A DNA stretch of 64,000 nt, taken from positions 19,235 through 83,234 of the forward strand of contig MFTV01000010.1 in the NCBI GenBank assembly GCA_001785445.1, given 5' to 3'. Positions within the stretch are counted from its first letter, which is position 1; each line of letters begins with the position of its first letter. The notes under the pieces were generated by a model. The model did not search any database, was not told the DNA's origin, and saw only the letters and a program-made list of their open reading frames with translations. Positions 9,237 to 51,399 of the stretch are shown here, piece by piece. A program made the position numbers and the translations under genes. The stretch comes from Candidatus Nomurabacteria bacterium RIFCSPHIGHO2_02_40_30 (GTDB lineage Bacteria; Patescibacteriota; Minisyncoccia; Phycocordibacterales; UBA9973).

Positions 9237-9240
9237 TGGC

Positions 9241-26649: not shown

Positions 26650-26946
26650 ATGAAGCACAATCGTCAAAAAGTTTTTGAATACAAAAAAGAATTGGTGGAA
26701 GTTTTTTCTAAGTTATCTGGGAATAAAGAGTTTATAGACATCTTTTTAAAAGACATTCTTACGCCTAACGAATTTGAAACCTTGGCTCTACGGTGGCAGA
26801 TAGTCAAGAAATTAAATAAGGGAGAAGACCATAGGTCTATAGTAGGGGATTTGGGTCTTGGAATGAGTACTGTTACTAGGGGGTCTCGCATGCTTCGCAA
26901 CAAAAATGGTGGGTTCAATGTAATGTTGAAAAAGTTTGGCAAATAA
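26650..26946 (+). CDS. TrpR/YerC-family (Trp repressor-like) small DNA-binding protein
   Basis: ...DILTPNEFETLALRWQIVKKLNKGEDHRSIVGDLGLGMSTVTRGSRMLRN matches the TrpR-like helix-turn-helix pattern (LTPxExxxLxxRxxI...L..G..SQREI...LG.SIATITRGS). A GTG at 26635 could extend it by 5 aa. Sits immediately downstream of trpS. Confidence 0.6.
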   Translation: MKHNRQKVFEYKKELVEVFSKLSGNKEFIDIFLKDILTPNEFETLALRWQIVKKLNKGEDHRSIVGDLGLGMSTVTRGSRMLRNKNGGFNVMLKKFGK

Positions 26947-27271
26947 AGCTTGCCCAGTATCGAGCTTCGCTCTATTTTGGGTTATCCACAGCCCTTATCT
27001 AAAAACTCTTGCTTTATATCTTTACCTATGCTACCATGCACTAGTGCATAGATGTAAGAGTGATGATGAGAAATAATATGAAAAATAACTTTCAAACAAA
27101 TAAAATAGAGAAATTATCAAACAAAGCTTGGTGGGGCGCAAGTTTCGCTTTTGCGTCTATTTGTTGATTTCTTTTTCTACTTAACCAAGCAAGGAATCCA
27201 CCAACCGGCGCAAAAATCGCTGGTTTTCTGGTTTTTGTGCTAGAAAAAATTGTTCTTCGAAAGGAAAATAT

Positions 27272-27430
27272 ATGACACAGGAAGAAAAAAATTCTTGCGA
27301 GCTTGTATCGCAAGAATTGGTTGGGACAGGACTACTTTCTCTGGAAAAGTTCAACGCTCTGTGCGAAAAACACGGCGTGGATCCGAAGCTTGTTAAGCTT
27401 TACAATATGGCGATTGCTTCGACGAAGTAA
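27272..27430 (+). CDS. Candidate small protein (52 aa) in a low-coding region
   Basis: ATG with upstream AAGGAAA. Product MTQEEKNSCELVSQELVGTGLLSLEKFNALCEKHGVDPKLVKLYNMAIASTK. It falls below the 60-aa ORF track cutoff. Confidence 0.3.
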   Translation: MTQEEKNSCELVSQELVGTGLLSLEKFNALCEKHGVDPKLVKLYNMAIASTK

Positions 27431-39741: not shown

Positions 39742-40800
39742 ATGTATCTAGATTTAGTTAAAATTTTTGTACCGACTACATTTGCCTTTTTTCTGGGTAT
39801 TTTTATTACGCCTTTGGCTACCCATTTTTTCTACAAATATAAAATGTGGAAGAAAAAAGCAAGGAGTGAAGATATAACATCCGCTGATTTCAAATTAATC
39901 CATCAACAGAAAGAAGAAACTGAAATTTCAACCCCATGCGTGGGCGGTATTGTCATCTGGGTTTCTGCACTCTTCACTGTTTTTGTATTTTTTCTGTTGT
40001 CAGTTATTTTTCCGAATGATTTGTTTTCAAAATTAAATTTTTTCAGTCGTTCGCAAACTTTTATCCCTGTGGGCATATTTATATTGGGAGCCATATTGGG
40101 ACTGGTGGACGACGTTTTGGAAATTAGAGGCAAAGTGGATATAACCAGAAATTCAGCTTGGTATACCAGAATAAAATTATTTATCATAACAATACTGGGC
40201 TTACTCGCAGGCTTTTGGTTCTTTTTCAAACTAGATATGCATTCTGTTCATATTCCTTTTAACGGCAATGTGGAGCTTGGAATTTTATTTATACTGTTTG
40301 TCGTTATTGTGATGCTCTCTACTTTCTCCGGCGGAGTAATAGACGGGCTAGACGGACTCTCCGGCGGAGTTTTGGCATCTATTTTTGGAGCTTACTCTGT
40401 TATCGCTTTCGTCAATAATCAAATAGATTTGGCGACTTTCTCCGGAGTAGTGACAGGCGCAATTTTGGCATTTCTTTGGTTCAATATTCCTCCGGCGCGT
40501 TTCTATATGGGGGAGACCGGCATGATGCCACTTACTATTACTCTCGCCACTATAGCGTTTTTGACGGATACAGTTTTGATTTTACCGATAATAGCCTTTC
40601 CGCTGGTTATTACTTCAGCTTCTTCCAGCCTGCAGCTTCTTGCCAAAAAGTTTTTTGGCAAGAAAGTTTTTCGAGTGGCGCCACTGCATCACCACTTTGA
40701 AGCTATTGGCTGGCCGTCTTACAAAGTTACTATGCGTTTTTGGGTTCTGGCGGTCGTGTCTGCTATTATTGGAATAATTTTAGCGGTCATTAGCAGATAG
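39742..40800 (+). CDS. mraY: Phospho-N-acetylmuramoyl-pentapeptide transferase
   Basis: 10-TM protein with the MraY signature VIDGLDGLSGG and conserved HHHFE near the C-terminus. Confidence 0.85.
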   Translation: MYLDLVKIFVPTTFAFFLGIFITPLATHFFYKYKMWKKKARSEDITSADFKLIHQQKEETEISTPCVGGIVIWVSALFTVFVFFLLSVIFPNDLFSKLNFFSRSQTFIPVGIFILGAILGLVDDVLEIRGKVDITRNSAWYTRIKLFIITILGLLAGFWFFFKLDMHSVHIPFNGNVELGILFILFVVIVMLSTFSGGVIDGLDGLSGGVLASIFGAYSVIAFVNNQIDLATFSGVVTGAILAFLWFNIPPARFYMGETGMMPLTITLATIAFLTDTVLILPIIAFPLVITSASSSLQLLAKKFFGKKVFRVAPLHHHFEAIGWPSYKVTMRFWVLAVVSAIIGIILAVISR

Positions 40801-40838
40801 AGCTTTAGACTCTTAGATAGAGTCTAAAGCTCTATCTG
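40794..40838. repeat. 45-nt perfect palindrome (copy A) at the mraY/ftsW junction
   Basis: cagatagagctttagactct-tagat-agagtctaaagctctatctg has 20-bp arms and a 5-nt loop. It overlaps the mraY stop. A second copy lies at 50029-50075. Confidence 0.7.
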
Positions 40839-40845
40839 CAAAAGT

Positions 40846-41943
40846 ATGAAAACAAAGAAAGTAGACAAATTTTTTCTCGGTATCGTACTTATCTTGATTT
40901 TTTTCGGGCTGGCTATTTTTGTTTCCGCATCTTTGGGCATCTTGGCAAAAAATGAAAAGATTTTTTATTCCGTGCTTTTCAGCCAGCTTGTCTTAGGGCT
41001 TGGGATGGGGTTCGTCGGCATGTACCTTTGTTTTAAAATTGACTACAAGTTTTGGCGTAAATACGCCTTTTATATTTTTTTAGCTTCGACACTGCTCACC
41101 GCGGCTGTTTTTATTCCCGAGCTAGGGTGGAGCCACGGCGGAGCTCAAAGGTGGATACAGTTTGGAGGATTTTCTTTTCAACCGGTAGAAATTTTAAAGT
41201 TTGGTTTTGTGATTTATTTTGCTGCCTGGCTGTCCTGGGCAAAAAACAAAGTGCAGGATTTCAAATTCGGCATATTGCCATTTTTTATAATGATTTCTAT
41301 AATAGCTCTGATTTTAATAAATCAACCCGACACCAAAAGCTTCATTTTAATAGCCACAACAGGCATATCAATGCTTTTTATTTCTGGTGTGTCGATGAAA
41401 AAGATTTTTGGAGCAGGAATTTGTATAGTGTTAGTTTTGATGGCGCTATTGTTATATAAACCTTATTTGCAAGAAAGATTTAAAACTTTTTTAGACCCCT
41501 CGAGTGATCCTAGAGGTTCTTCCTACCAAATCCAACAGTCGTTAATTGCCTTGGGCTCTGGGGGCGCCATAGGCCGTGGATTTGGCCAAAGCGTTCAAAA
41601 ATTTAGCTACTTACCTGAACCGCAGGGAGACTCCATCTTTGCTGTTTTAGGTGAAGAATTAGGTTTTGTGGGAGCAGGCGCAACCATATTTCTTTATCTG
41701 CTTTTTGCTCTGCGCGGATTTCGCATCGCAAATCGCGCACCGGACCCTTTTGGTGGACTTTTAGTCTCGGGGATTGTTATACTGATTACGGTGCAGTCAT
41801 TTATGCACATTGCTTCCATTACCGGAGTCTTCCCGCTTACCGGCGTGCCGCTTCCTTTTATGAGCCATGGCGGCACATCCCTCATGATCTATATGGCAGC
41901 TATGGGTATTGTATTAAACATATCAAAATTTAACAAAAATTAA
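40846..41943 (+). CDS. ftsW: SEDS-family peptidoglycan glycosyltransferase FtsW/RodA
   Basis: 10 TM helices. Conserved SEDS loop ...SDPRGSSYQIQQSLIALGSGGAIGRGFGQS...LPEPQGDSIFAVLGEELGFVG. Confidence 0.85.
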   Translation: MKTKKVDKFFLGIVLILIFFGLAIFVSASLGILAKNEKIFYSVLFSQLVLGLGMGFVGMYLCFKIDYKFWRKYAFYIFLASTLLTAAVFIPELGWSHGGAQRWIQFGGFSFQPVEILKFGFVIYFAAWLSWAKNKVQDFKFGILPFFIMISIIALILINQPDTKSFILIATTGISMLFISGVSMKKIFGAGICIVLVLMALLLYKPYLQERFKTFLDPSSDPRGSSYQIQQSLIALGSGGAIGRGFGQSVQKFSYLPEPQGDSIFAVLGEELGFVGAGATIFLYLLFALRGFRIANRAPDPFGGLLVSGIVILITVQSFMHIASITGVFPLTGVPLPFMSHGGTSLMIYMAAMGIVLNISKFNKN

Positions 41944-41944
41944 C

Positions 41945-43075
41945 ATGAAAATAGTTTTTACAGGCGGAGGAACAGGCGGACACTTTTATCCCATCATCGC
42001 TGTTGTTCAAAAAGTAAACCAAATCATCGACCATGAGAATATAATAGGAGCCAAGCTCTATTATATTTCCAACAGTCCCTATGACAAAGAGATGCTATTT
42101 GAAAACGGACTTTTATACGAAGAAGTAACTTCTGGGAAAATGCGAACCTATTTTTCCCTTAAAAACTTTTCTGATGTGTTTAAAATATTTTTCGGCACAA
42201 TAAATGCAATTTATAAATTATTTTCAATTTACCCTGATGTTGTTTTCGGCAAAGGGGGCTACGCGTCCTTCCCGACAATTTTTGCCGCGAGGTGTCTTCG
42301 CATTCCTGTGGTGATTCACGAATCAGACTCGGCGCCAGGGCGGGTAAATAAATGGGCTGGGCACTTCGCTAAAAAAATAGCCATCTCTTTCCAAGAAGCG
42401 AGCGACTTTTTCCCTAAGAATAGTGTGGCTTGGACTGGACAGCCGATAAGAGCTGAAGTAGAACATCCTGCGCCCAAGGAAGAAGCCTTCGAGTATTTTA
42501 AATTGGAGTCGAAGTTGCCGGTTATTTTAATTTTAGGAGGCTCACAGGGCGCGGAACTTATAAATAACACCATTTTAGATGCAGTTCCAAGACTGGTAAA
42601 AAGTTATCAAGTTATCCACCAAACTGGAGTTAATAATTTTAAAATGGTTGAGGCTCGAGGGAGGGTAGTATTAACCGACAATGAATACAAGCTAAGATAT
42701 CTATCATTTCCTTTTTTAAACAACTTGCAACTGAAAATGGCGGCAGGGGCGGCAACTATTGTTATTTCCCGAGCGGGTTCGGCTCTTTTTGAAATAGCCT
42801 CTTGGGGGTTGCCTTCAATCTTAATACCGTTTACACAATCTAATGCCGACCATGCCAAGAAAAATGCTTTCAACTATGCTCGCGCTGGCGCCTGCAGTGT
42901 CATCGAAGAGGCGAATATGACCGCTAATATTTTAAGTTCAGAAATTGAGAGAATTGTAGGAGATAAGGAAGATTATGCTCGAATGGCAGAAGCGGCAAAA
43001 GTCTTCAATAAACCCGATGCGGCGACGAAAATCGCCCGCGCGCTCGTGGACATAGCTTTAAGCCACGAGAAATAA
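41945..43075 (+). CDS. murG: UDP-GlcNAc:lipid I N-acetylglucosaminyltransferase MurG
   Basis: MKIVFTGGGTGGHFYPIIAV, the MurG N-terminal G-loop, on a GT-B fold. Placement after ftsW is the usual order. Confidence 0.85.
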   Translation: MKIVFTGGGTGGHFYPIIAVVQKVNQIIDHENIIGAKLYYISNSPYDKEMLFENGLLYEEVTSGKMRTYFSLKNFSDVFKIFFGTINAIYKLFSIYPDVVFGKGGYASFPTIFAARCLRIPVVIHESDSAPGRVNKWAGHFAKKIAISFQEASDFFPKNSVAWTGQPIRAEVEHPAPKEEAFEYFKLESKLPVILILGGSQGAELINNTILDAVPRLVKSYQVIHQTGVNNFKMVEARGRVVLTDNEYKLRYLSFPFLNNLQLKMAAGAATIVISRAGSALFEIASWGLPSILIPFTQSNADHAKKNAFNYARAGACSVIEEANMTANILSSEIERIVGDKEDYARMAEAAKVFNKPDAATKIARALVDIALSHEK

Positions 43076-43091
43076 ATGTTAAACTGTTTAA

Positions 43092-44417
43092 ATGGATAAA
43101 AAAGTTGTAACCAGATTTGCACCCAGTCCTACGGGGAAGTTTCATGTAGGCGGTGTTAGGTCGGCGCTTTATAATTACCTTTATGCTAGAAAAAATGGGG
43201 GGAAGTTCATTTTGCGTTGCGAAGATACGGACAAAGAAAGATCCAAAAAAGAATATGAAGATTACTTTCTTGATGTATTTAAATGGCTAGGTTTGAACTA
43301 CGACGAATACTACCGCCAATCTGAACGCACCGCTATTTATAAAAAATACTTGAGTAAACTCATAGAAGAAGGTAAGGCGTATATTTCAAAAGAAGAAATA
43401 AAGGAAGAGGGGCAAAGAAGTGAAGTTATTCGTTTTAAAAATCCCAATATAAGAATTAATTTTCACGACGAAGTATTAGGCGACCTCTCTTTTGACACTA
43501 CGGATTCCAAAGACTTTATTATAGCGCGCGATCTTGAAACTCCGCTTTTTAATTTTACCAATGTTGTGGATGATTTTGAAATGGGAGTCACTCACGTGAT
43601 TCGCGGGCAAGAACATGTGTCCAACACTCCGCGGCAAATTTTAATTGGCGAAGCCATAGGTGCTCCAAGGCTCATTTATGCCCACTGCTCTATTATCTTA
43701 AACGAAGAAAGAGCCAAACTGTCCAAGCGCGACCCTTTGGTGCTTCCAGCTCTTGGCTACAAAGAAGAGGGGTATTTACCGGAGGGCATACTTAACTTCA
43801 TGTCTCTTTTGGGCTGGAACCCCGGTACTCCGGAAGAAATTTTCACCCTGAAAGAATTAGTGGAAGCTTTTTCTATAGAAAGAATGCAAAAGCAGCCAGC
43901 TATATTTAATGTAGATAAGTTACATTGGGTAAATAAAGAACATATCAAGAAGTTGTCTGGAGAGGAAATAGAAAAAAATATTTTAGCATGGCTGAAACCT
44001 GCTTACGCAGGTTTCAGGGAGAGTATCCTTATAAAACTAATTCCGGTGATTCTGGAGAGAATTTCAAAATGGAGCGATGTGAAAAACATGGCCGAAAAGG
44101 GGGAGCTCGACTTCTTCTTTAAACAGCCGGAATATGATAAGAGTAAATTAATTTATAAAAATGCTGCACTCGAAAAAATAGTTTCTAATCTAGGCAAAGC
44201 TATTGTAGTTTTGAAAAATTTAGATGAAAAAGATTTTAATAAAGAAAATATAAAAACAAAATTAATGGATACAGCAGATAGTCTAGATAGTCGAGGTGAA
44301 TTACTACATCCGGTGCGTTTTGCCCTTTCCGGACTAGACAAGTCTCCAGACCCATTTATTATTGCCGAGATTTTAGGTAAAAATGAAACTATTTCAAGAT
44401 TACAGAAAGCTATTTAG
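43092..44417 (+). CDS. gltX: Glutamyl-tRNA synthetase (short form)
   Basis: Class I motifs RFAPSPTGKFHVGGVRSALYNY (HIGH-type HVGG) and KLSKRD (KMSKS-type). Confidence 0.8.
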   Translation: MDKKVVTRFAPSPTGKFHVGGVRSALYNYLYARKNGGKFILRCEDTDKERSKKEYEDYFLDVFKWLGLNYDEYYRQSERTAIYKKYLSKLIEEGKAYISKEEIKEEGQRSEVIRFKNPNIRINFHDEVLGDLSFDTTDSKDFIIARDLETPLFNFTNVVDDFEMGVTHVIRGQEHVSNTPRQILIGEAIGAPRLIYAHCSIILNEERAKLSKRDPLVLPALGYKEEGYLPEGILNFMSLLGWNPGTPEEIFTLKELVEAFSIERMQKQPAIFNVDKLHWVNKEHIKKLSGEEIEKNILAWLKPAYAGFRESILIKLIPVILERISKWSDVKNMAEKGELDFFFKQPEYDKSKLIYKNAALEKIVSNLGKAIVVLKNLDEKDFNKENIKTKLMDTADSLDSRGELLHPVRFALSGLDKSPDPFIIAEILGKNETISRLQKAI

Positions 44418-45663
44418 TATAATTATTTTTACAATACTGATAATACCTTTGGCTTTTTCCCATGCGCAAACAGCCGGAGATTTAAAAGATAAAATAAATC
44501 AAAAAGATGCTGACATTCAGCAACTGGAGAAAGAAATAGCTGCTTATCAGCTAGAGCTTGATACTCTAGGAGAACAAAAAAGCTCCCTCAATAGCGCCAT
44601 CAAACAGCTTGATTTAACAAAGAAAAAATTAAATACCGATATTGCCGTAACGGAGAAAAAGATTGATAAAACAAATCTAAAAATAGAAAGTTTAAGCTCC
44701 GACATAAGTACGAAACAGGACACAATAACAAACAACGTAGAATCTATCAAGTTGGAAATTCGAAAAACCAACGAATTTGAGATGAACAGCATCCTTTCAA
44801 CTCTGCTTTCTGAAAATGACTTTACGGTCATCTGGAACGACATAGACAATATAGCCACGGTGCGGGAAAAAATAAGGCAAGACATAGTCAAGCTAAAAGA
44901 AATAAAGGGGGAACTGGAAGATACCAGGAAAGAAACCATTTCTGCTAAAAATGAACTTACTAAGCTTAAGTCCAGACTTTCTGACCAGAAGAAAATAGTG
45001 GTGCAAAATACAAATGAAAAAAACAAACTGCTAAAGCAGACGAAAAACAATGAAGCTAATTACCAAAAACTGCTTAAAGAGCGAATGGCCGAGAGGGATG
45101 CCTTTGAGAAAGAGTTGCGCGACTACGAAGCCCAGTTGGAATTTATTCTAGATCCGTCCAAACTGCCTTCGGGCGGAGTATTAAGCTGGCCGCTTGAAAG
45201 AATATTTGTGACCCAGCTATTTGGCAAGACAGTAGACTCCAAACGCCTGTATGCATCGGGCACCCACAACGGCGTGGACTTTCGCGCCTCGGTGGGGACG
45301 CCGGTCATGGCTATGGCTGACGGCACAGTTTTGGGGGTAGGAAATACTGACACAACTTGCTATGGAGCATCTTTCGGCAAATTTGTTTTTATAAAATACA
45401 ACAACGGCCTTGCGAGCACCTTTGGGCATTTGTCACTTATAAAGTCATATGAAGGGCAAAGAGTTAGAAGGGGCGAAGTGGTAGGCTATACCGGCAACAC
45501 TGGGCATACCACCGGCCCTCATTTGCACATATCTCTATACGCTTCGGAAGCTGTCAAAATGGCTTCCAAGCCCTCTAAAGCCTGTGGCGGGCGTATTTAC
45601 AGGCTACCCGTTGCGCCGATTAATGCTTACCTTGATGCGTTGTATTATTTGCCTCGGTTGTAG
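44383..45663 (+). CDS. M23 peptidase with N-terminal signal peptide and long coiled coil (EnvC-like)
   Basis: Signal/TM segment, roughly 230 aa of heptad-rich sequence, then a LytM domain: HNGVDFRASVGTPVMAMADGTV...GHLSLIK...GNTGHTTGPHLHISLY. Confidence 0.8.
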   Translation: MKLFQDYRKLFSIIIFTILIIPLAFSHAQTAGDLKDKINQKDADIQQLEKEIAAYQLELDTLGEQKSSLNSAIKQLDLTKKKLNTDIAVTEKKIDKTNLKIESLSSDISTKQDTITNNVESIKLEIRKTNEFEMNSILSTLLSENDFTVIWNDIDNIATVREKIRQDIVKLKEIKGELEDTRKETISAKNELTKLKSRLSDQKKIVVQNTNEKNKLLKQTKNNEANYQKLLKERMAERDAFEKELRDYEAQLEFILDPSKLPSGGVLSWPLERIFVTQLFGKTVDSKRLYASGTHNGVDFRASVGTPVMAMADGTVLGVGNTDTTCYGASFGKFVFIKYNNGLASTFGHLSLIKSYEGQRVRRGEVVGYTGNTGHTTGPHLHISLYASEAVKMASKPSKACGGRIYRLPVAPINAYLDALYYLPRL

Positions 45664-45678
45664 TATAATTTATAGGTT

Positions 45679-45867
45679 ATGAAAAATAAAAAGAGTGGTT
45701 TTATTCAAATAATTATTCTTATCGTCGTTGCTCTTCTAGTGATGCGTTATTTTGGTCTCACTATTTCCGGAATCTTGGATTATTTTGGTCTTACGTGGAC
45801 TGAAATTATTAGTTGGCTCAAAAAAGCCTTGGATTGGCTCAAAGAGTTATTTCAAAGTGTAAAGTAA
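45679..45867 (+). CDS. Small membrane protein (62 aa)
   Basis: Single TM helix (IQIIILIVVALLVMRYF) plus an amphipathic C-terminus. Followed by a terminator-like hairpin and T-run at about 45885-45930. Confidence 0.35.
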   Translation: MKNKKSGFIQIIILIVVALLVMRYFGLTISGILDYFGLTWTEIISWLKKALDWLKELFQSVK

Positions 45868-45944
45868 ATAAAAAATAAAAATACCCCGAAGACCGAAAGG
45901 TAATCGAGGTTCTTTTGGTTTCATTTTTTCTAAAGAACTTACCC

Positions 45945-46380
45945 AGACGAGGGTGACGTGAGATCTGTCCGCTCCTTGCTTAAGATCCAATCACGTCACC
46001 CTTTGCGCTTGGTCAGTGCGTACTGCGTTAGATACCACTGACCTCATTCGGTGTGCGACTTCGAGAGGCACACCGAATGGAACTTTACTCGTCGCCTTGT
46101 AACGACCGAGGCAGGGCAAATGGGTCGCCCTCCTCTGCTACTTCTTCCGTCGTCTTGGCGAGTGGTTCAGGCTTTGTTGCCCGAGTTAAGAAAACAAAAA
46201 TTTGGGCTATCATTGCTAGCGCTAGGCCGGCAAATTCAAGCCACATCAACCTTTCCCATGTCATACGTATCCTCCTATCCATGTTTATACCACAAAGTTA
46301 GAAATAAACAAGGAAAACTAAAGGAGCCTGCCCCAACCGAGTTTCGTTCTGGTTCGGGGTTATCCACAGCTTAGGCTTGG
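45945..46380. other. GC-rich, highly structured region of about 430 nt (candidate structured RNA gene, or foreign DNA carrying a small ORF)
   Basis: Consecutive perfect hairpins: gggtgacgtga/tcacgtcaccc (11 bp), ggtcagtg/cactgacc (8 bp), cattcggtgtgc/gcacaccgaatg (12 bp). Local GC is far above background. No conserved tmRNA or RNase P motif was recognised. A minus-strand 59-65-aa ORF (46085-46282) with an AGGAGG Shine-Dalgarno sequence and one TM helix also lies here. Confidence 0.4.
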
Positions 46381-46393
46381 TGTTATTTTCTGA

Positions 46394-46440
46394 TGTGGAA
46401 TATAATGTATATTAAGTGGGAAAAAGTGGGAAATGTGTGG
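46394..46440 (+). promoter_or_regulatory. mraZ promoter with MraZ-type GTGGG direct-repeat operator
   Basis: -35 TTGGTG (about 46378), 17-nt spacer, -10 TATAAT (46401-46406). GTGGG / GTGGG / GTGTGG repeats at 46416, 46426 and 46435 have 10-bp periodicity, with an extra TGTGG at 46394. This lies 25-70 nt upstream of the mraZ ATG. Confidence 0.55.
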
Positions 46441-46462
46441 ATAATGATTTTTAAATAAAAAT

Positions 46463-46900
46463 ATGCTCATCGGTGAATACATACATACAATAGACGAGAA
46501 AAACAGAGTTTCCTTGCCGGTAAAGTTCAGGAAGGAAATGGGCAGAAAAATTATTATCACACCGGGGCTGGGGCAGTGTTTATTTATTTTTACAACTGCC
46601 GAGTGGGCAAAAGTAAGTAAAAAACTTTCCGACTCGGAGGCCGACCTTTCTTTCCTGAAAGCAGACCAGAGAAGTTTCAACAGATATATGTTTGGACGAG
46701 CGGCGGAAGTGGAAATTGATGCAATCGGCAGAATGCTGATACCGGAATTCCTGCAAGAGGGTATCAGACTTCGAGACAAAGCGGCAATTATCGGAGTCAA
46801 AGATAGGGTGGAGATTTGGAACGAAAAGGCATGGAGAGAGCAGAAAGAAAAAATCGGGAAAGAAGCGGAGCAATTGGCAGAGAAGTTAGGAAATGAATGA
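46463..46900 (+). CDS. mraZ: Transcriptional regulator MraZ
   Basis: Tandem MraZ/SpoVT-AbrB-like halves: MLIGEYIHTIDEKNRVSLPVKFRKEM... and ...EVEIDAIGRMLIPEFL. Confidence 0.85.
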   Translation: MLIGEYIHTIDEKNRVSLPVKFRKEMGRKIIITPGLGQCLFIFTTAEWAKVSKKLSDSEADLSFLKADQRSFNRYMFGRAAEVEIDAIGRMLIPEFLQEGIRLRDKAAIIGVKDRVEIWNEKAWREQKEKIGKEAEQLAEKLGNE

Positions 46901-47867
46901 TATGGAAAGCGTGCATAAGACAGTTCTTTTACAAGAGACAATAGATGGTTTGAATTTGAAAAATAATTCTGTAGTCGTGGATGCCACATTCGGTGGAGGC
47001 GGGCATAGCTTAGAAATTTTATTAAGAAACCCAAATACAAAAGTTATCGCCATTGATCAAGATAGTACCGTTTGGGAAAGGGTGAAAGAAAAATTTAAAG
47101 GATTAGAGAACAGAATTTCTTTTACCAATAAAAATTTCCGAGACATAGATAAACTGGAGAATATTGATCCCGTTAGAAGCCGCCCTCTCGAACACGAGAG
47201 TGCTACGATCACCTTGGGGCGACCTGCTTCTAACGGGATTGATGGAATTATTTTTGATTTAGGTTTAAGTTCCGACCAGCTAGAGAATTCCGGACGAGGA
47301 TTTTCTTTCATGAAAGATGAGCCCTTGCTCATGCAAATGAAAAGTTCAGCGAAAGAAAATCCTTCTCCAGAAGATGTTACAGCACTTGATGTGGTAAATA
47401 CATGGAGCGAGAAAAGTTTAGCCGATATTATTTATGGCTATGGAGAGGAAAAATTTAGCCGGAGAATAGCCAAGGGCATAGTGGAGACACGACAAAAGAA
47501 AAAGATTGAAACCACGACCGAACTAGTCGAAATCATCAGTCAGGCAGTTCCGGCAGCATATAGGAGAGCCAGATTACACTTTGCCACCAGAACCTTTCAG
47601 GCCATAAGAATAGCAGTAAATGACGAGCTGGGTAGCTTGGAACAAGGATTGAGTAAAGGATTTGACGCATTAAAAATAGGTGGACGAATAGCAACAATTT
47701 CTTTCCACAGCTTGGAAGACCGAATAGTAAAAAGATTTTATAAAAAAAAGGTTACGGAGGGAAAAGGAAAATTAGTAAATAAAAAGATAATTTTAGCAGA
47801 TAATAGTGAAATTAAAAATAATCCAAGAGCCAGAAGCGCAAAATTACGAATAATAGAAAAAATATAA
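46893..47867 (+). CDS. rsmH: 16S rRNA (cytosine1402-N4)-methyltransferase RsmH (MraW)
   Basis: HKTVLLQETIDGL...VVDATFGGGGHS (SAM-binding) ...FDLGLSSDQLE...ISFHSLEDRIVK is the RsmH signature. Confidence 0.9.
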   Translation: MNDMESVHKTVLLQETIDGLNLKNNSVVVDATFGGGGHSLEILLRNPNTKVIAIDQDSTVWERVKEKFKGLENRISFTNKNFRDIDKLENIDPVRSRPLEHESATITLGRPASNGIDGIIFDLGLSSDQLENSGRGFSFMKDEPLLMQMKSSAKENPSPEDVTALDVVNTWSEKSLADIIYGYGEEKFSRRIAKGIVETRQKKKIETTTELVEIISQAVPAAYRRARLHFATRTFQAIRIAVNDELGSLEQGLSKGFDALKIGGRIATISFHSLEDRIVKRFYKKKVTEGKGKLVNKKIILADNSEIKNNPRARSAKLRIIEKI

Positions 47868-47942
47868 AAAATATGAGTCCCGTTAGAAGTTCACTGGCGG
47901 GAGATAAAAAGAAAAATTATAAATTTTAAAACTTCTAACGGG

Positions 47943-48323
47943 ATGAGTGCGATAGCTTCAAAAATAAATATGCAAATCAGGAGTATCAATGTTATAAACA
48001 ACAATGTTGAAAAACTCTTTTTGCGTATCTTACTTTGGTCTTTCGCGACATTTCTTTTGTGGTATATTTTCCTTTTAGGCAGTATGGTTTTCAATATTGT
48101 AGAACGCCGAACCCTTGAAAAAGAAGCGTTGGTTTTATCTAATCAAGTTCATGAATTGGAGCTTAACTACCTATCAATGTCTAACAAGATTGATCTTACT
48201 TTTGCATATTCTGTGGGTTTTAAGGAGACGAATATCAAGTTTGCAACTCGTAAATTTTTAGGATTTAACCCTAGCAACGGGTCATCTGGTAATATTGATA
48301 GTATTTCTAAAAATGAAATTTAG
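47943..48323 (+). CDS. Putative cell-division protein FtsL-like (single TM plus coiled coil)
   Basis: 126 aa with one TM helix and a short heptad region. Sits between rsmH and ftsI, where ftsL normally lies. No sequence signature. Confidence 0.4.
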   Translation: MSAIASKINMQIRSINVINNNVEKLFLRILLWSFATFLLWYIFLLGSMVFNIVERRTLEKEALVLSNQVHELELNYLSMSNKIDLTFAYSVGFKETNIKFATRKFLGFNPSNGSSGNIDSISKNEI

Positions 48324-50028
48324 TTTTCTCTTTAGGTCCAGAGTCATTCTTTTTTGCTTGATTTTATTTTCTTTGGTTTTGATGTCCAAGCTGTTTTTGG
48401 TGCAAATAATGCATGGTGGAGCGTATGGAGAGGAAGCGAACCGTCAGTATGCCACACCGTCATCAAACATTTATGAACGCGGAACTATTTATTTTATGCG
48501 CAAAGACGGAGAACCAGTATCTGCGGCTACCCAGACGTCTGGATTTAAGCTAGCTATTGAGCCTACTAAAATTATCGACTTTGAAAATACTTACAAAAAG
48601 TTGTCAGACATAGTAGCTATAAGTCGTGATGATTTTCTAGCTAAAGCGCTGAAGAAAAACGACCCCTACGAAGAAGTCGCAAGCCATCTTTCCAAAGAGG
48701 AAGCCGACGCTGTATCGGCGTTAAAGCTTTCCGGAGTAAATATTTTTAAAGAAAAGTGGCGTTTTTATCCCGGAGTTTCTTTAGCTTCGCATACTCTTGG
48801 CTTTGTGGGGTATAAAGGCGACGAACTTGGCGGACGCTATGGCCTAGAGAGGCAGTATAACACAGAGCTGGCGCGCAATAACGGCAACCCATATATAAAT
48901 TTTTTCGCCGAAGTTTTTTCCAATATTAATAAAACTTTATTTCAAAACGGAGTGCGGGAAGGGGACGTAATAACAACCATCGAGCCTTCGGTTCAAGATT
49001 TTTTGGAAAAGAAATTAAGAGACGTCAAGGAAAAATATCAAGTTGACTCTATTGGAGGAATAATAATGAATCCAATGGACGGCTCTATTTACGCTCTTGG
49101 TGTCAAGCCTGACTTTGACCCGAATAATTTTTCCAAAGTTAAGTCAACCAATACATTTTCTAACCCGCTAGTGGAAAGTGTATTAGAATTCGGGTCTGTG
49201 GTCAAACCATTGGTTATGGCTGCGGCACTTGATGCCAAGGTTCTAACTCCGGAGACAACTTATACCGACAACGGGTCGGTAATAGTTGAAAATAAAGAAA
49301 TATTTAACTTTGATAAAAAGGCCCGAGGTCCGAATACCAGCATGCAGGAAGTTCTCAATCAGTCCTTAAATACCGGCATGGTTTTCGTAGAAAAGAAATT
49401 AGGTAAAGAGCTTTTGCGCGAATATCTTTTGTCCTACGGTATTAAAGATAAAACAGGAATTGACTTACCTAATGAGACTTCTGGACTTGTTTCCAATATA
49501 CTAAATAGCCCTCGTGAAATCGAGTACGCCAATGCGGCTTTCGGCCAGGGCATAGCCCTTACGCCGGTAGAATTAATTCGAGCATTGGCCACCCTAGCAA
49601 ATGGCGGGAATCTAGTTACTCCGCATGTTGTGAAAGAAATAAAATACAATGACGGCACTCGCAAAGAAAACAAGTATCCCACAATGCCTGCCAAGATTAC
49701 GAAAGCTACGAGTGAGGAGATAACCAGAATGCTGGTGACTGTAATGGACAAAGCTATAAAAAGCGGGCTAGGAAAATTAGAACATTTCAGTGTAGCTGTA
49801 AAGACGGGCACAGCTCAAGTTGCCGATAATACCACCGGAGGCTATTATACAGATAGGCACACGCACTCATTTGTTGGTTATTTTCCAGCATATGACCCGA
49901 AATTTATAGTATTTCTTTATGCAGTGAATCCTCGTGGGGTAGAATACGCTGCCACCACTTGGACGGATGCTTTTTTAGACATTACTAAATTTTTATTAAA
50001 TTATTACGAAATTCCACCGGACAGATAA
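48295..50028 (+). CDS. ftsI: Penicillin-binding protein 2/3-type transpeptidase (FtsI-like)
   Basis: N-terminal TM helix, PBP dimerisation domain, and transpeptidase motifs SVVKP (SxxK), SLN (SxN) and KTGTA (KTG). Confidence 0.85.
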   Translation: MIVFLKMKFSFLFRSRVILFCLILFSLVLMSKLFLVQIMHGGAYGEEANRQYATPSSNIYERGTIYFMRKDGEPVSAATQTSGFKLAIEPTKIIDFENTYKKLSDIVAISRDDFLAKALKKNDPYEEVASHLSKEEADAVSALKLSGVNIFKEKWRFYPGVSLASHTLGFVGYKGDELGGRYGLERQYNTELARNNGNPYINFFAEVFSNINKTLFQNGVREGDVITTIEPSVQDFLEKKLRDVKEKYQVDSIGGIIMNPMDGSIYALGVKPDFDPNNFSKVKSTNTFSNPLVESVLEFGSVVKPLVMAAALDAKVLTPETTYTDNGSVIVENKEIFNFDKKARGPNTSMQEVLNQSLNTGMVFVEKKLGKELLREYLLSYGIKDKTGIDLPNETSGLVSNILNSPREIEYANAAFGQGIALTPVELIRALATLANGGNLVTPHVVKEIKYNDGTRKENKYPTMPAKITKATSEEITRMLVTVMDKAIKSGLGKLEHFSVAVKTGTAQVADNTTGGYYTDRHTHSFVGYFPAYDPKFIVFLYAVNPRGVEYAATTWTDAFLDITKFLLNYYEIPPDR

Positions 50029-50075
50029 CCAGATAGAGCCTTAGACTCTATCTAAGAGTCTAAGGCTCTATCTGG
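50029..50075. repeat. 47-nt perfect palindrome (copy B) at the ftsI/murF junction
   Basis: ccagatagagccttagactct-atcta-agagtctaaggctctatctgg has 21-bp arms. Compared with copy A the arm substitution t>c is compensated by a>g, and the loop is reverse-complemented. Confidence 0.7.
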
Positions 50076-50082
50076 AAACACC

Positions 50083-51399
50083 ATGAAAACAATTTTGAAA
50101 AAAATAATAACTTACATTTTGCGGCTAGAGTCGGTTTTGGTACTTTTCAAATATAAACCAAAAATCATTGCTATTACCGGCTCGGTCGGCAAGACTTCCA
50201 CCAAAGATGCGGTGTATGCGGTCTTATCGGGAATTACATATGTTCGTAAAAGTGAAAAAAGCTACAACAGCGAAATAGGTTTGCCCCTTACTATCTTAGG
50301 TGTTCCAAATGGGTGGAATAATCCATTAATCTGGCTCAAAAATATATTTGCTGGTTTATGGCTTTTTATATATCCTCACAAATACCCCAAAATGCTTGTG
50401 CTGGAAGTAGGCGTCGGCAAAGAGGGGGATATGAAGAAAACCGCATCATGGCTTAAAACCGATGTAGTCATTATTACGGCCGTAGGTGAGACTCCGGTGC
50501 ATATTGAATTTTTTAATTCACGCAAAAACTTGATAGAGGAAAAAAGTCAACTCATAAAAACTTTAAAAAAGGACGGTCTTCTTGTATTGAATGCTGATGA
50601 CGAAGATGTGCTGCAAATGGGAACAAACAGCAAGCACCTTGTTAAAACTTATGGATTTAAAGAAGGTGCTAATATTTTGGGTTCCAGCGATAGTATTTTT
50701 TACGATGAACATGGAGTACCCAAGGGAGTAATTTTCAGAGTTGATGAAGAGGGCAGGAGTCTGCCCGTAACCATAGAAGGAGTTTTTGGAAGGAATCACG
50801 TTTATGCAACTTTGGGTGCTCTTGCTCTCTCTTCTGGTTTAAAATTTAATATGCTTGATGCTGTAAATGCGCTCAAAAATTACGATATTCCGCCCGGACG
50901 AATGCGGCTTTTAGAAGGCATCAATGATTCTCTTATAATTGACGATAGCTACAATTCTTCTCCGTTTGCTTGCGAGTCGGCGCTCCGAACCTTAGGCGAA
51001 GTAAAAAATTTGGGAAGAAAAATAGCTGTCTTGGGAGACATGCTGGAACTTGGCAAGCACACGCAGGAAGCTCATAAGAATATTGGTCGTATTGCCAAAG
51101 AATACACAGATGTTCTTATTGTTGTAGGTCCTAGAGCTCAAGATATAAAAGACGGAGCGTTAGAGGTTTACCCGTCTTCCGGCGGGCGAGGGATTAATCC
51201 TGCTAACATTTTTGAATTTTTAGATTCGTATCATGCAGCAGAATTTATAAAAACTTTTGTGCAAAAAGGAGACCTAGTACTAGTGAAAGGTTCCCAAGGT
51301 ATGCGCATGGAGCGGATAGTGGAAGCTATACTTTTAGACCAAATAAATAAAGAAAAACTACTCGTCCGCCAAGACAAAGAGTGGCTGGAGAAAAAGTAG
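50083..51399 (+). CDS. murF: UDP-MurNAc-pentapeptide synthetase MurF (Mur ligase)
   Basis: Mur ligase P-loop ITGSVGKTSTKD and the central/C-terminal Mur ligase domains. Its position after ftsI, with murE absent, favours MurF, but MurE cannot be excluded by eye. Confidence 0.7.
   Translation: MKTILKKIITYILRLESVLVLFKYKPKIIAITGSVGKTSTKDAVYAVLSGITYVRKSEKSYNSEIGLPLTILGVPNGWNNPLIWLKNIFAGLWLFIYPHKYPKMLVLEVGVGKEGDMKKTASWLKTDVVIITAVGETPVHIEFFNSRKNLIEEKSQLIKTLKKDGLLVLNADDEDVLQMGTNSKHLVKTYGFKEGANILGSSDSIFYDEHGVPKGVIFRVDEEGRSLPVTIEGVFGRNHVYATLGALALSSGLKFNMLDAVNALKNYDIPPGRMRLLEGINDSLIIDDSYNSSPFACESALRTLGEVKNLGRKIAVLGDMLELGKHTQEAHKNIGRIAKEYTDVLIVVGPRAQDIKDGALEVYPSSGGRGINPANIFEFLDSYHAAEFIKTFVQKGDLVLVKGSQGMRMERIVEAILLDQINKEKLLVRQDKEWLEKK

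What the first reader, a model, noticed from the sequence alone, without database searches (positions are those of the whole stretch)
45945..46380. GC-rich block of about 430 nt made of consecutive perfect hairpins between a small-protein terminator and the mraZ promoter
- The composition is strikingly above background.
- It contains 11-, 8- and 12-bp perfect stems back to back, plus longer-range complementarity.
- In AT-rich small genomes such islands are usually structured RNA genes. The size range fits tmRNA, RNase P RNA, or large SRP/6S RNAs.
- By eye I could not find RNase P P4 (GGAAAGUCC / ACAGAA), a tmRNA tRNA-like end, or SRP helix-8 motifs on either strand.
- A minus-strand small ORF (46085-46282) with an internal AGGAGG-ATG and one TM helix is also present.
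- The region therefore may instead be horizontally acquired DNA encoding a membrane peptide.
- Its 3' end carries a 47-nt repeat that is also found at 26946-26992.
Basis: partly seen in the sequence, partly recalled or inferred. Interest (0 to 1): 0.55.

Follow-up and report, generated by a model that had tools for sequence, protein, structure and literature searches.

The report
Orphan small-gene cassette upstream of mraZ
The GC-rich, hairpin-filled block is not a known structured RNA gene; it is most likely a species-specific small gene on the opposite strand (a 59-residue membrane peptide followed by three perfect stem-loops and a terminator), in a spot before the cell-division operon where related bacteria each carry different inserted material.

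Summary
Positions 45945-46358 are 50% GC in a 39% GC window and carry three perfect stem-loops of 12, 8 and 12 bp. The "47-nt repeat" is a real but imperfect second copy.

The RNA-gene interpretation does not hold. Rfam finds nothing at gathering score or at E<=10, and ARAGORN finds nothing. Excess structure is confined to the 3' half (z -7.5). The other half folds like shuffled sequence (z -0.9). That half is an ORF on the minus strand with AGGAGG-6 nt-ATG, coding for 59 aa with one transmembrane helix.

The block has no DNA or protein homologue anywhere. This includes 1.84 billion representative proteins, phage and plasmid records, and 160 related loci.

Among the 80 genome-collection loci, about 74 have lysS upstream of mraZ. 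The spacer between lysS and the conserved mraZ promoter, whose edge is a perfect DnaA-box consensus (TTATCCACA), varies from 56 nt to 2.5 kb. It holds unrelated minus-strand small ORFs with strong Shine-Dalgarno sites, GC-rich hairpins, REP-associated transposase-like genes and toxin-antitoxin-like pairs.

My best reading is a lineage-specific accessory transcription unit: putative promoter, SD, small membrane peptide, structured 3' UTR and a bidirectional terminator. Whether it is translated, and what it does, remain untested. The organism is clonal in public data, so no comparative test is possible.

The parts
45883..45910 (.). Hairpin T, a bidirectional intrinsic-terminator-like stem-loop (ACCCCGAAGACCGAAAGGTAATCGAGGT). 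It is followed by CTTTTGGTTTCATTTTTT on the + strand, where it ends the 62-aa gene. On the minus strand it is followed by ATTTTTATTTTTTATTT, where it would end the small-gene transcript.
   Evidence: Sequence read. The fold is -13.3 kcal/mol as minus-strand RNA and -9.9 as plus-strand RNA, because a C.A mismatch on + becomes a G.U pair on -. The stem is interrupted, so the simple scan did not call it. Relatives carry the same module (hairpin plus a CTTTGGTG-type tail) after lysS.
45932..45938 (+). AAAGAAC motif (GTTCTTT on the minus strand), lying between hairpin T and hairpin C.
   Evidence: The same motif occupies the same place in the boundary modules of relatives: L003, L004, L005, L027, L016, L017, L044, L047 and L074. 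I read it as the U-rich tail following the last GC-rich hairpin of the minus-strand unit. This is an inference.
45950..46002 (-). Hairpin C: a perfect 12-bp stem (AGGGTGACGTGA / TCACGTCACCCT) with a 29-nt loop that contains a 5-bp inner stem.
   Evidence: repeat I3; -27.3 kcal/mol; forms part of the 3' region with z -7.5.
46011..46043 (-). Hairpin B: a perfect 8-bp stem (GGTCAGTG / CACTGACC), extended by further pairs in the fold.
   Evidence: I13; -15.5 kcal/mol.
46045..46079 (-). Hairpin A: a perfect 12-bp stem (CATTCGGTGTGC / GCACACCGAATG) with an 11-nt loop. It starts 5 nt after the ORF stop codon.
   Evidence: I4; -20.5 kcal/mol. No other copy exists in 84 kb of this genome. A scan of the metagenome collection found none either, but that collection does not hold this organism, so the result is uninformative.
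46085..46264 (-). Candidate coding sequence of 59 aa: MTWERLMWLEFAGLALAMIAQIFVFLTRATKPEPLAKTTEEVAEEGDPFALPRSLQGDE. It has one predicted transmembrane helix (about residues 6-27) and an acidic, proline-rich tail with net charge -4.
   Evidence: This stretch has no excess RNA structure (z -0.89). GC at codon positions 1/2/3 is 0.60/0.43/0.50, against native means of 0.46/0.33/0.38. Gene callers report it as a 59- or 65-aa protein on about 98 contigs, always with identical sequence. It has no homologue.
46271..46276 (-). Shine-Dalgarno sequence AGGAGG, 6 nt upstream of the ATG at 46264.
   Evidence: Of the 22 AGGAGG occurrences in the window, this is the only one followed by an ATG-initiated ORF of at least 50 aa. 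Only 2 of 51 native genes have any SD.
46284..46311 (-). Putative promoter: TTGTTT (46311-46306), a 16-nt spacer, and an extended -10-like TGgTATAAA (46292-46284).
   Evidence: Read. It matches TGnTATAAT at 8 of 9 positions. Relatives have a GTGGTATAnn motif at the same place: L010, L017, L019, L023, L030, L061 and L073. It was NOT called by the consensus scan, because the -35 is weak and the last base of the -10 is A. It remains an inference.
46331..46359 (.). Imperfect hairpin (CCCCAACCGAG TTTCG TTCTGGTTCGGGG) abutting the DnaA-box-like site. Together with that site it makes up the '47-nt repeat'.
   Evidence: It is related in inverted orientation to the hairpin T region: 45883-45921 against 46315-46360, with 4 of 3000 shuffles scoring as high.
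46360..46368 (+). TTATCCACA, a perfect DnaA-box consensus. It marks the start of the conserved mraZ promoter region, so it bounds the block and belongs to the neighbouring feature.
   Evidence: Present about 100 nt upstream of the mraZ ATG in 79 of 80 relatives. DNA homology with relatives begins at 46359. The window holds 4 copies against 0.53 expected.
26946..26992 (+). Second, imperfect copy of the hairpin plus GGTTATCCACAGC, just after the stop codon of a Trp-repressor-family gene and upstream of a promoter-like site.

Best explanation
The block is a lineage-specific accessory transcription unit read on the minus strand, divergently from mraZ.

Proposed layout and workings:
- A weak, extended -10-type promoter (46311-46284) starts a short-leader mRNA.
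- AGGAGG-6 nt-ATG drives translation of a 59-aa single-pass membrane peptide (46264-46085).
- The roughly 215-nt 3' UTR carries three perfect GC-rich stem-loops (46079-45950). They most likely protect the 3' end from exonucleases and back up termination.
- Transcription ends at a bidirectional terminator (45910-45883) shared with the convergent 62-aa gene.

The high GC content has two sources: the GC-rich stems and an ORF whose composition is foreign to this genome.

The unit occupies a hypervariable slot between an upstream terminator and the conserved mraZ promoter, whose edge is a DnaA-box-like site. Related Nomurabacteria carry unrelated cargo in the same slot.

Shown: the sequence features, their statistics, the absence of homologues and the variability of the slot.
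Inferred: the promoter, translation, the roles of the hairpins, and acquisition by recombination.
For: (1) Structure and coding potential are cleanly separated. The ORF part folds like shuffled sequence (z -0.89, 35 of 200 shuffles as good). The part from 5 nt after the stop codon to the terminator has z -7.48.

(2) AGGAGG sits 6 nt before the ATG.

(3) Hairpin T is followed by a long U-tract on the minus strand and is more stable as minus-strand RNA (-13.3 against -9.9 kcal/mol).

(4) Relatives show the same architecture at the same place but with unrelated sequence. For example, L003/L085 (MraZ 93% identical) has: hairpin 1, AAAGAAC, a GC hairpin, a 79-aa minus-strand ORF with GGAGG, a promoter, and the box.

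(5) Across the variable stretches (islands) of 68 relatives, SD-ATG signals on the minus strand number 86 against 17 expected, while the plus strand has 22. In 103 distinct loci, 48 have an SD-led ORF (6 in shuffled controls), 65 have a promoter-like site (29 in controls) and 29 have a perfect hairpin of at least 10 bp (3 in controls).

(6) The slot is hypervariable. The distance from the lysS stop to the box runs from 56 nt to 2.5 kb. Its small ORFs are almost all singletons, 171 of 180.

(7) The block is atypical for this genome. GC1/2/3 all lie about 2 sd or more above native genes, and an SD occurs at only 2 of 51 native genes.

(8) A second island in the same window (9170-10970) shows the same signature of GC-rich, SD-led minus-strand orphan ORFs and a perfect 12-bp hairpin terminator, next to HicA and GIY-YIG genes.

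(9) The block appears with identical sequence and context in assemblies from more than 100 index blocks, so it is not an assembly artefact.
Against: - The peptide has no homologue at all, and the organism shows no sequence variation in public data. There is therefore no evolutionary evidence for coding.
- Three overlapping ORFs of 107, 82 and 65 aa exist in the block simply because GC-rich DNA has few stop codons, so ORF length carries no weight.
- The consensus scan did not call the promoter. Its -10 lacks the usual final T, and the leader would be only about 12-15 nt.
- The scan did not call the terminator either, because its stem is interrupted.
- Several relatives hold only hairpins and no ORF in this slot (L016, L029, L033, L037). 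A non-coding product is therefore a realistic alternative.
- No expression data were available.
Confidence: 0.55

Rival explanations
1. A non-coding minus-strand small RNA. The unit is transcribed as proposed, but the 59-codon ORF is fortuitous. The functional product would be a structured RNA whose hairpins are the active part. Alternatively the unit acts only as a transcription insulator between the upstream gene and the regulated mraZ promoter.
For: - At least a dozen relatives have, in the same slot, a consensus-like promoter next to the box, followed directly by a long near-perfect GC-rich hairpin and terminators, with no SD-led ORF (L016, L028, L029, L031, L032, L033, L037, L042, L052). 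Twenty of 103 loci have a perfect hairpin but no ORF.
- L028 and L122 differ by an A-U to G-C double change inside such a hairpin.
- ORFs are cheap in GC-rich DNA.
Against: - The ORF region has no excess structure.
- AGGAGG lies at ideal spacing from the ATG, and the hairpins begin only after the stop codon.
- No Rfam family matches.
- The sequence shares nothing with the ORF-less units of relatives.
Confidence: 0.2
2. A relic or passenger of a mobile element, such as a foldback/MITE-like, REP-type or IS200/IS605-derived non-autonomous element. It would have been inserted or recombined into a hotspot, and the hairpins would be DNA-level recognition structures rather than RNA elements.
For: - The block is bracketed by an imperfect inverted repeat of about 46 nt (45883-45921 against 46315-46360; 4 of 3000 shuffles).
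- The same slot in 9 relatives holds a REP-associated tyrosine-transposase-like gene (NF047646, E 3e-8) flanked by species-specific palindromes. L057 has an IS1595 transposase.
- REP palindromes sit right next to the box in L014, L017 and L053.
- Islands in L005, L024, L028, L029, L030 and L074 are arrays of unrelated modules separated by 80-135-nt boundary repeats that are 89-100% identical.
Against: - Hairpins A-C are unrelated to each other and are single-copy in 84 kb of this genome.
- No target-site duplication is visible (read from the sequence).
- No transposase occurs in the window.
- The right-hand repeat arm continues into the host-conserved box and recurs with it at 26946, which does not fit a mobile-element end.
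- There are no hits in phage, plasmid or viral collections.
Confidence: 0.15
3. A type I toxin-antitoxin locus. The 59-aa hydrophobic peptide would be a membrane toxin whose structured, stable mRNA is controlled by a cis-encoded antisense RNA. That RNA would start inside the ORF on the plus strand (promoter-like site 46186-46213) and cover the SD and start codon.
For: - The peptide is small and single-pass, and the locus is an orphan that varies between species.
- The mRNA has a highly structured 3' end.
- A plus-strand promoter-like site, TTAAGA-16-TATCAT, lies antisense to the ORF.
- Toxin-antitoxin genes populate such islands in this genome and its relatives.
Against: - The antisense promoter match is at chance level: 2 found against 2.2 expected in the region.
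- No convincing terminator exists for the antisense RNA.
- The long acidic C-terminal tail is unlike well-known type I toxins. This comparison rests on my own knowledge.
- The 5' region is not significantly structured.
- There are no paralogues or homologues.
Confidence: 0.08
4. A housekeeping structured RNA gene on either strand (RNase P RNA, tmRNA, SRP RNA, 6S RNA or a divergent relative).
For: GC-rich islands in AT-rich genomes are often RNA genes, and the whole block folds better than shuffles.
Against: - No Rfam match even at E<=10, and no tmRNA by ARAGORN.
- The structure consists of three local perfect hairpins confined to one half of the block.
- Nothing homologous exists in 160 related loci, where a housekeeping RNA would be conserved.
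Confidence: 0.02

Closest known systems
Strain- or species-specific accessory gene islands at recombination hotspots between conserved core genes
   Same: The flanks are conserved: a terminator module on the left, and the box plus mraZ promoter on the right. The content is unrelated between species. Composition and translation signals are atypical. The slot also holds transposase-like and toxin-antitoxin genes.
   Different: The scale is very small (about 0.4 kb, one tiny ORF). The slot lies directly against the regulated promoter of the cell-division operon. In this genome the usual left-hand core gene (lysS) has been replaced by a rearranged murG-gltX-M23 segment.
Type I toxin-antitoxin toxins (Hok, Fst, TisB, TxpA and BsrG type small membrane peptides)
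   Same: A peptide under 60 aa with one transmembrane helix, its own promoter and strong SD, a highly structured mRNA end, an intergenic position and poor conservation.
   Different: No credible antisense RNA gene, no sequestration of the SD in a significant structure, an acidic 33-aa tail, no paralogues, and toxicity untested.
REP / REPIN elements with RAYT transposases
   Same: GC-rich perfect palindromes downstream of a stop codon in an AT-rich genome. RAYT-like genes with cognate palindromes occupy the homologous slot in nine relatives.
   Different: The three hairpins are unrelated to each other and are single-copy in 84 kb. No RAYT occurs in the available sequence. The only palindrome in the window that occurs in two copies is a different sequence (40790-40842 and 50029-50075).
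Integron gene-cassette arrays / CALINs (clusters of attC sites lacking an integrase)
   Same: In relatives, the islands are arrays of small, mostly orphan ORFs and toxin-antitoxin pairs, separated by near-identical palindromic boundary elements of about 80-135 nt.
   Different: The boundary elements show no recognisable R''/R' (RYYYAAC / GTTRRRY) core sites by eye. No integrase is seen. The cargo carries its own promoters and SDs. The attC covariance model could not be run. The window itself has only one module.

Membership tests
Known structured RNA families (Rfam 15: RNase P, tmRNA, SRP, 6S, ribozymes, riboswitches and others) | A match to the family covariance model at or near its gathering score | tested here: not met
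   No match in 45945-46380 at gathering score or at E<=10 with permissive filters over 45000-46600 on both strands. ARAGORN finds no tmRNA.
Known structured RNA families (housekeeping RNAs) | Conservation of the locus or sequence in related genomes | tested here: not met
   None of the 80 genome loci or 80 metagenome loci of Nomurabacteria has similarity to 45945-46358.
Protein-coding small gene | An ORF with a start codon preceded by a ribosome-binding site at functional spacing | tested here: met
   AGGAGG, 6 nt, ATG, 59 codons, TAA.
Protein-coding small gene | An evolutionary signature of coding: homologues, synonymous drift | tested here: inconclusive
   No homologue in 5.8 billion (word-indexed) or 1.84 billion (exhaustive HMMER) proteins. 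All public copies are identical, so there is nothing to compare.
Protein-coding small gene | Evidence of transcription and translation | not testable with these tools
   No RNA-seq, Ribo-seq or proteomics access.
Type I toxin-antitoxin system | A small (under about 60 aa) hydrophobic peptide with a transmembrane helix | tested here: met
   59 aa. The best 19-residue hydropathy window is residues 9-27, with mean 1.99.
Type I toxin-antitoxin system | A cis- or trans-encoded antisense RNA antitoxin with its own promoter and terminator, overlapping the toxin mRNA | tested here: inconclusive
   One plus-strand promoter-like site at 46186-46213, but the region yields 2 such sites against 2.2 expected by chance. 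No clear terminator.
Type I toxin-antitoxin system | Toxicity of the peptide and neutralisation by the RNA | not testable with these tools
   Requires experiment.
REP / REPIN repeats | Many copies of the same palindrome dispersed in intergenic regions of the genome | tested here: not met
   Hairpins A, B and C occur once each in the 64-kb window plus 20 kb of flanks. The rest of the genome could not be searched.
REP / REPIN repeats | A cognate RAYT (Y1 transposase) gene in the genome | tested here: inconclusive
   tblastn with four RAYT-like proteins of relatives finds nothing in the window. The rest of the genome is unavailable.
MITE / foldback transposable element | Terminal inverted repeats, a target-site duplication and multiple copies | tested here: not met
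   An imperfect inverted repeat of about 46 nt exists. No duplication flanks it (read from the sequence), no second copy of the element exists, and the right arm runs into host-conserved sequence.
Integron cassette / attC site | An attC recombination site (R''-L''...L'-R' imperfect hairpin with a GTT core) and an IntI integrase or an array of such sites | not tested
   The IntegronFinder attC model is not available. By eye, the boundary modules do not show RYYYAAC / GTTRRRY cores. No integrase is seen in the loci read.
Intrinsic (Rho-independent) terminator (hairpin T) | A GC-rich stem-loop followed directly by a U-tract | tested here: inconclusive
   By eye and by folding, a 7+3 bp interrupted stem is followed by AUUUUUAUUUUUUAUUU on the minus strand and CUUUUGGUUUCAUUUUUU on the plus strand. 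The consensus scan, which needs an uninterrupted stem and a loop of 3-8 nt, called no terminator in 45500-46600.

The most novel reading that the evidence does not exclude
The stretch between the upstream terminator and the DnaA-box edge of the mraZ promoter may be a dedicated expression slot in Nomurabacteria. Its promoter and terminator scaffolds would be conserved, even kept identical within a genome. The transcribed core, either a long GC-rich hairpin RNA or an SD-led small ORF, would be exchanged wholesale, with modules stacking into arrays separated by near-identical palindromic boundary elements.

That would be a cassette-exchange system working without a recognisable integrase, possibly driven by the REP/RAYT machinery found in the same slot. 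The window's block would be one such cargo.

The strongest hint is L029. Two copies of the scaffold are 100% identical on both sides of a totally different core of about 85 nt, and the divergence begins at the predicted transcription start.
Probability: 0.15. Interest if true: 0.7.

Novelty: new member of a known kind. Interest (0 to 1): 0.35.

Why it matters
For annotation, this removes a false lead. The island is not a missing RNase P, tmRNA or SRP gene of a candidate-phyla-radiation (CPR) genome.

For biology, it shows three things about a streamlined, AT-rich genome that barely uses Shine-Dalgarno sites:
- it still carries tiny, compositionally foreign, SD-led orphan genes with elaborate hairpin tails;
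- these genes concentrate at one position, directly against the regulated promoter of the cell-division operon;
- that position turns over completely between species.

If the small peptides or hairpin RNAs are functional, for example as toxins, in phage exclusion or in surface and membrane modulation of an episymbiont, this slot is a convenient place to look for fast-evolving accessory functions in Nomurabacteria. The conserved DnaA-box consensus at the edge of the mraZ promoter also suggests a testable link between replication and cell division in this group.

Tried and rejected
- RNA family searches. Rfam at gathering score on the whole window and at E<=10 on 45000-46600 gave only noise (mir-980, PART1_2), both outside the block. 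ARAGORN found only tRNA-Glu at 51944. Rfam and ARAGORN on relatives' upstream regions found no RNA gene upstream of mraZ.
- Peptide homology. Nothing in Pfam, NCBIfam or PHROGs. The word-indexed search of 5.8 billion proteins returned only the peptide itself, as did exhaustive HMMER against 1.84 billion representatives.
- The plus-strand 107-aa ORF has no homologue.
- DNA similarity. Distant-mode BLAST against phages and plasmids found no match.
- Viral contigs. Neither the peptide nor the hairpin C pattern was found.
- Metagenome scan for the hairpin A pattern gave 0 matches. That collection evidently lacks this organism, so the result says nothing about copy number.
- Closer relatives. I looked for relatives with a diverged copy of the block in order to test coding against structural constraint. 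The best MraZ identity in both collections is 93%, and those loci carry unrelated cargo. The 90% clusters of MraZ and of the peptide contain only identical sequences.
- Sequence family across relatives. An attempt to define a family for the variable cores by k-mers and nhmmer recovered only the boundary/terminator module and SD/anti-SD words. Nothing is shared with the window's block.
- CCCCGAAG as a REP seed, by analogy with the REPs of L020 and L030. The other three copies in the window lie within called ORFs, so I dropped it.
- Retron, CRISPR and group II intron readings. No repeats or reverse-transcriptase-like ORFs nearby and no Rfam hits.
Full report
**1. What is there**

The window is a Nomurabacteria (Parcubacteria / candidate phyla radiation) genome fragment. 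It is identical to a 163-kb scaffold, and the same proteins are seen on contigs from more than 100 index blocks of public assemblies.

Positions 45945-46380 are 50.2% GC against 39.2% for the window. That places the block in the top 0.75% of same-size windows. The few equally GC-rich windows lie over called ORFs of at least 120 aa.

Three perfect inverted repeats lie back to back:
- 45950-45961 / 45991-46002, 12 bp (not 11);
- 46011-46018 / 46036-46043, 8 bp;
- 46045-46056 / 46068-46079, 12 bp.

The block folds much better than shuffled sequence on either strand (z -5.3 and -4.8).

The "47-nt repeat" exists. Positions 46325-46371 and 26946-26992 align at 36 of 47 positions with two gaps. They share an exact 14-nt core (GGTTATCCACAGC plus one base), and both fold as hairpins. 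No shuffle out of 2000 scored as well.

**2. It is not a known structured RNA**

Rfam gives only one tRNA in the whole window at gathering score. For 45000-46600 at E<=10 it gives nothing inside the block. ARAGORN finds no tmRNA.

The decisive internal observation is that structure is not spread over the block. The 194 nt that contain the minus-strand ORF fold no better than shuffles (z -0.89). The 217 nt from 5 nt after its stop codon to the terminator have z -7.48. That is the anatomy of a coding sequence followed by a structured 3' tail, not of a 430-nt ribozyme-like RNA.

**3. Anatomy on the minus strand**

- TGTGGATAA (46368-46360).
- An imperfect hairpin (46359-46331).
- A putative promoter: TTGTTT (46311-46306), 16 nt, TGgTATAAA (46292-46284).
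- AGGAGG (46276-46271), then 6 nt, then ATG (46264).
- 59 codons, ending in TAA (46087-46085).
- Hairpin A (46079-46045, -20.5 kcal/mol), hairpin B (46043-46011, -15.5) and hairpin C (46002-45950, -27.3).
- GTTCTTT (45938-45932).
- Hairpin T (45910-45883), followed by AUUUUUAUUUUUUAUUU.

On the plus strand, hairpin T is followed by CUUUUGGUUUCAUUUUUU and ends the convergent 62-aa gene. It is therefore a bidirectional terminator. It is more stable as minus-strand RNA (-13.3 against -9.9 kcal/mol), because a C.A mismatch on the plus strand becomes a G.U pair.

The peptide has one hydrophobic helix (about residues 6-27) and an acidic, proline-rich tail with net charge -4.

The longer 65-aa reading starts 1 nt after the putative -10 element and is therefore unlikely.

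Caveats: the consensus scan called neither this promoter nor this terminator. The -35 is weak, the -10 ends in A, and the stem of T is interrupted.

**4. The block is an orphan**

- The peptide has no relative other than itself among 5.8 billion word-indexed proteins or 1.84 billion representatives read exhaustively by HMMER.
- It has no Pfam, NCBIfam or PHROG match.
- The plus-strand 107-aa ORF has no relative.
- The DNA has no match in phage or plasmid records and none in viral contigs.
- All public copies of the peptide and of the adjacent MraZ are identical. No comparative test of coding against structural constraint is possible.

**5. Context: a hypervariable slot**

I fetched 80 mraZ loci from species-representative genomes and 80 from metagenomes. 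All are Nomurabacteria-like, with MraZ 74-93% identical to the window's.

DNA homology with the window begins sharply at 46359, the base before TTATCCACA, and runs to the mraZ start codon. Nothing matches 45945-46358.

TTATCCACA lies about 100 nt upstream of mraZ in 79 of 80 genome loci.

In about 74 of those loci the upstream gene is lysS. The distance from the lysS stop to the box ranges from 56 nt to 2.5 kb. In the window, lysS is replaced by murG-gltX-M23 peptidase-62-aa gene, a synteny found in no relative.

The variable stretch (the island) in relatives contains:
- minus-strand small ORFs with GGAGG-type SDs, often GC-enriched and several of them transmembrane;
- long GC-rich perfect hairpins;
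- a REP-associated tyrosine-transposase-like gene in nine species (NF047646, E 3e-8, below the curated cut-off), flanked by species-specific palindromes;
- an IS1595 transposase and a PaaX/Cas2-like protein;
- pairs that look like HicAB by eye but gave no Pfam or NCBIfam hit.

Quantitatively:
- SD-ATG signals on the minus strand of the islands number 86 against 17 expected, and 22 on the plus strand.
- In 103 distinct loci, 48 have an SD-led ORF (6 in shuffled controls), 65 a promoter-like site (29 in controls) and 29 a perfect hairpin of at least 10 bp (3 in controls).
- The small ORFs are nearly all singletons, 171 of 180.

The closest relative (L003/L085) has exactly the window's architecture but a different ORF of 79 aa: hairpin 1 with a U-rich tail, AAAGAAC, a GC hairpin, a minus-strand ORF with GGAGG, a promoter and the box. 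Only the left boundary (69% identity over 77 nt) and the mraZ promoter region (about 80% identity) can be aligned with the window. The interior has therefore been replaced, not merely diverged.

**6. Foreignness within this genome**

Only 2 of 51 native genes in the window have any SD. Most have a TGnTAnnAT-type -10 element 7-12 nt before the ATG, which looks leaderless. The AGGAGG of the block is thus out of character. GC at all three codon positions is about 2 sd or more above native genes.

A second island in the window (9170-10970) has the same signature. It holds two GC-rich orphan ORFs on the minus strand with AAGGAG-type SDs and a perfect 12-bp hairpin terminator, next to HicA (PF07927), a HicB-like gene and a GIY-YIG gene. 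The 161-aa orphan of that island has relatives only in a few Nomurabacteria and one Doudnabacteria. This class of cargo therefore looks CPR-internal rather than imported from a distant donor.

**7. Best explanation and rivals**

Best explanation (confidence 0.55). The block is a lineage-specific accessory transcription unit on the minus strand. It encodes a 59-aa single-pass membrane peptide. Three perfect 3'-UTR hairpins most likely act as 3'-end protection and termination back-up. A bidirectional terminator is shared with the neighbouring gene. The sequence features, statistics, orphan status and slot variability are shown. The promoter, translation, hairpin function and mode of acquisition are inferred.

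Rivals:
- Non-coding small RNA or insulator (0.2). It is supported by ORF-less hairpin units in the same slot of relatives and by one compensatory pair between L028 and L122.
- Relic or passenger of a mobile element (0.15). It is supported by an imperfect inverted repeat of about 46 nt bracketing the block and by transposase-like genes and boundary repeats in relatives. It is weakened by single-copy hairpins, by the absence of a target duplication, and by the right arm running into host-conserved sequence.
- Type I toxin-antitoxin (0.08). The peptide fits. The antisense promoter is at chance level, and the acidic tail is atypical (my own knowledge).
- Housekeeping structured RNA (0.02). Effectively refuted.

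**8. Comparison with known systems and novelty**

The block behaves like cargo of a small genomic island at a recombination hotspot. It resembles type I toxin genes and REP-bearing 3' UTRs, but fails or cannot complete their membership tests (see the table). I file it as a new member of a known kind: an orphan accessory small-gene island.

The more novel possibility is that the slot is a cassette-exchange site with conserved promoter and terminator scaffolds. It rests mainly on two observations:
- L029 has two scaffold copies that are 100% identical on both sides of an unrelated core of about 85 nt, which begins at the predicted transcription start.
- Near-identical boundary repeats separate unrelated modules in L005, L024, L028, L030 and L074.

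I give that reading about 15%.

**9. Verdict**

The RNA-gene interpretation is wrong, and the "acquired membrane peptide" fallback is the better reading. Interest is moderate to low for the block itself (0.35), with a more interesting family-wide pattern around it.

Noticed in passing
window 46360-46368 (+), 46436-46444 (-), 26982-26990 (+), 18119-18127 (+); relatives L003-L082: TTATCCACA, the perfect DnaA-box consensus, lies about 100 nt upstream of the mraZ ATG in 79 of 80 Nomurabacteria genomes, just upstream of the -35. The window has 4 copies against 0.53 expected. In L029, L079 and L011 a second copy sits just upstream of the -35 of the RAYT-like gene's promoter. In B. subtilis, DnaA is reported to bind the ftsL promoter region (PMC8203912, citing Goranov et al. 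2005). DnaA control of the dcw operon in this CPR group is therefore a testable idea.
   Followed up: partly
window 46414-46433: A tandem AAGTGGGAAA x2 lies directly downstream of the mraZ -10 (TATAAT, 46401-46406). It is conserved in relatives. It looks like the direct-repeat MraZ operator (TGGGN repeats at 10-nt phasing, as known from E. coli; this comparison is from my own knowledge).
   Followed up: partly
relatives L011, L020, L029, L030, L033, L045, L074, L079 (island coordinates): The RAYT-like (REP-associated tyrosine transposase-like) genes in the lysS-mraZ slot are flanked by species-specific palindromes. They also carry an in-frame copy of the same palindrome inside the coding sequence, just after the HxH motif (for example L029 ...HFHIYITLDENLRKSDFRK...). 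This internal copy co-varies with the flanking copies from species to species. L016 lacks the internal copy.
   Followed up: partly
L029 island positions 1-262 and 1000-1236: Two copies of a scaffold (REP, terminator hairpin, GGCG hairpin ... promoter, box) are 100% identical on both sides of a completely different GC-rich hairpin core of about 85 nt. The difference begins 1-2 nt after the -10 element and ends at the U-tract. Only the transcribed part has been swapped.
   Followed up: partly
relatives L005, L017, L024, L028, L030, L044, L074: Larger islands are arrays of unrelated modules separated by boundary elements of 40-135 nt that are 89-98% identical. Each element comprises a terminator-like hairpin, an AT spacer, AAAGAAC and the foot of a GC hairpin, always in the same orientation. 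This is superficially reminiscent of attC-delimited cassette arrays.
   Followed up: partly
window 9170-10970: A second accessory island. It holds a HicA toxin (9695-9985), a HicB-like DUF7387 protein (9553-9771), a GIY-YIG nuclease (10715-10969), two GC-rich SD-led orphan ORFs on the minus strand (10091-10576 and 9241-9456) and a perfect 12-bp hairpin terminator (9192-9232).
   Followed up: partly
whole window (51 genes listed): Native genes almost never have a Shine-Dalgarno sequence (2 of 51). They typically have a TGnTAnnAT-type -10 element only 7-12 nt before the start codon, which suggests predominantly leaderless or very short-leader mRNAs.
   Followed up: partly
window 40790-40842 and 50029-50075: Two copies of a 21-24-bp perfect or near-perfect palindrome (CAGATAGAGCYTTAGACTCT, 5 nt, then its reverse complement). 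One lies directly after mraY and the other after the PBP gene. It is a REP-like element family distinct from the hairpins of the finding.
   Followed up: no
window 39742-51399: The dcw cluster is rearranged. mraY-ftsW-murG (39742-43075), followed by gltX and an M23 peptidase, lie upstream of mraZ-rsmH-ftsL-PBP-mur ligase. In about 74 of 80 relatives lysS precedes mraZ, and in L054 murG lies downstream of mraZ.
   Followed up: partly
window 45883-45921 and 46315-46360: The block is bracketed by an imperfect inverted repeat of about 46 nt (AAACCAAAAGAACCT...TTTCGGTC...TTCGGGGT against AAACTAAAGGAGCCT...TTTCGTTC...TTCGGGGT). Four of 3000 shuffles score as high. No flanking duplication is visible.
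   Followed up: partly
window 26993-27272: Downstream of the second copy of the hairpin plus box there is a promoter-like site (TTGCTT, 17 nt, TACCAT), a possible 29-codon ORF (MKNNFQTNKIEKLSNKAWWGASFAFASIC) and two further hairpins before the next gene. It may be another small variable unit.
   Followed up: no
L028 and L122 (first 230 nt after the box, minus strand): The only pair of species that shares a homologous ORF-less core (86% identical) shows an A-U to G-C double substitution inside the long hairpin. This is consistent with selection on the stem.
   Followed up: no
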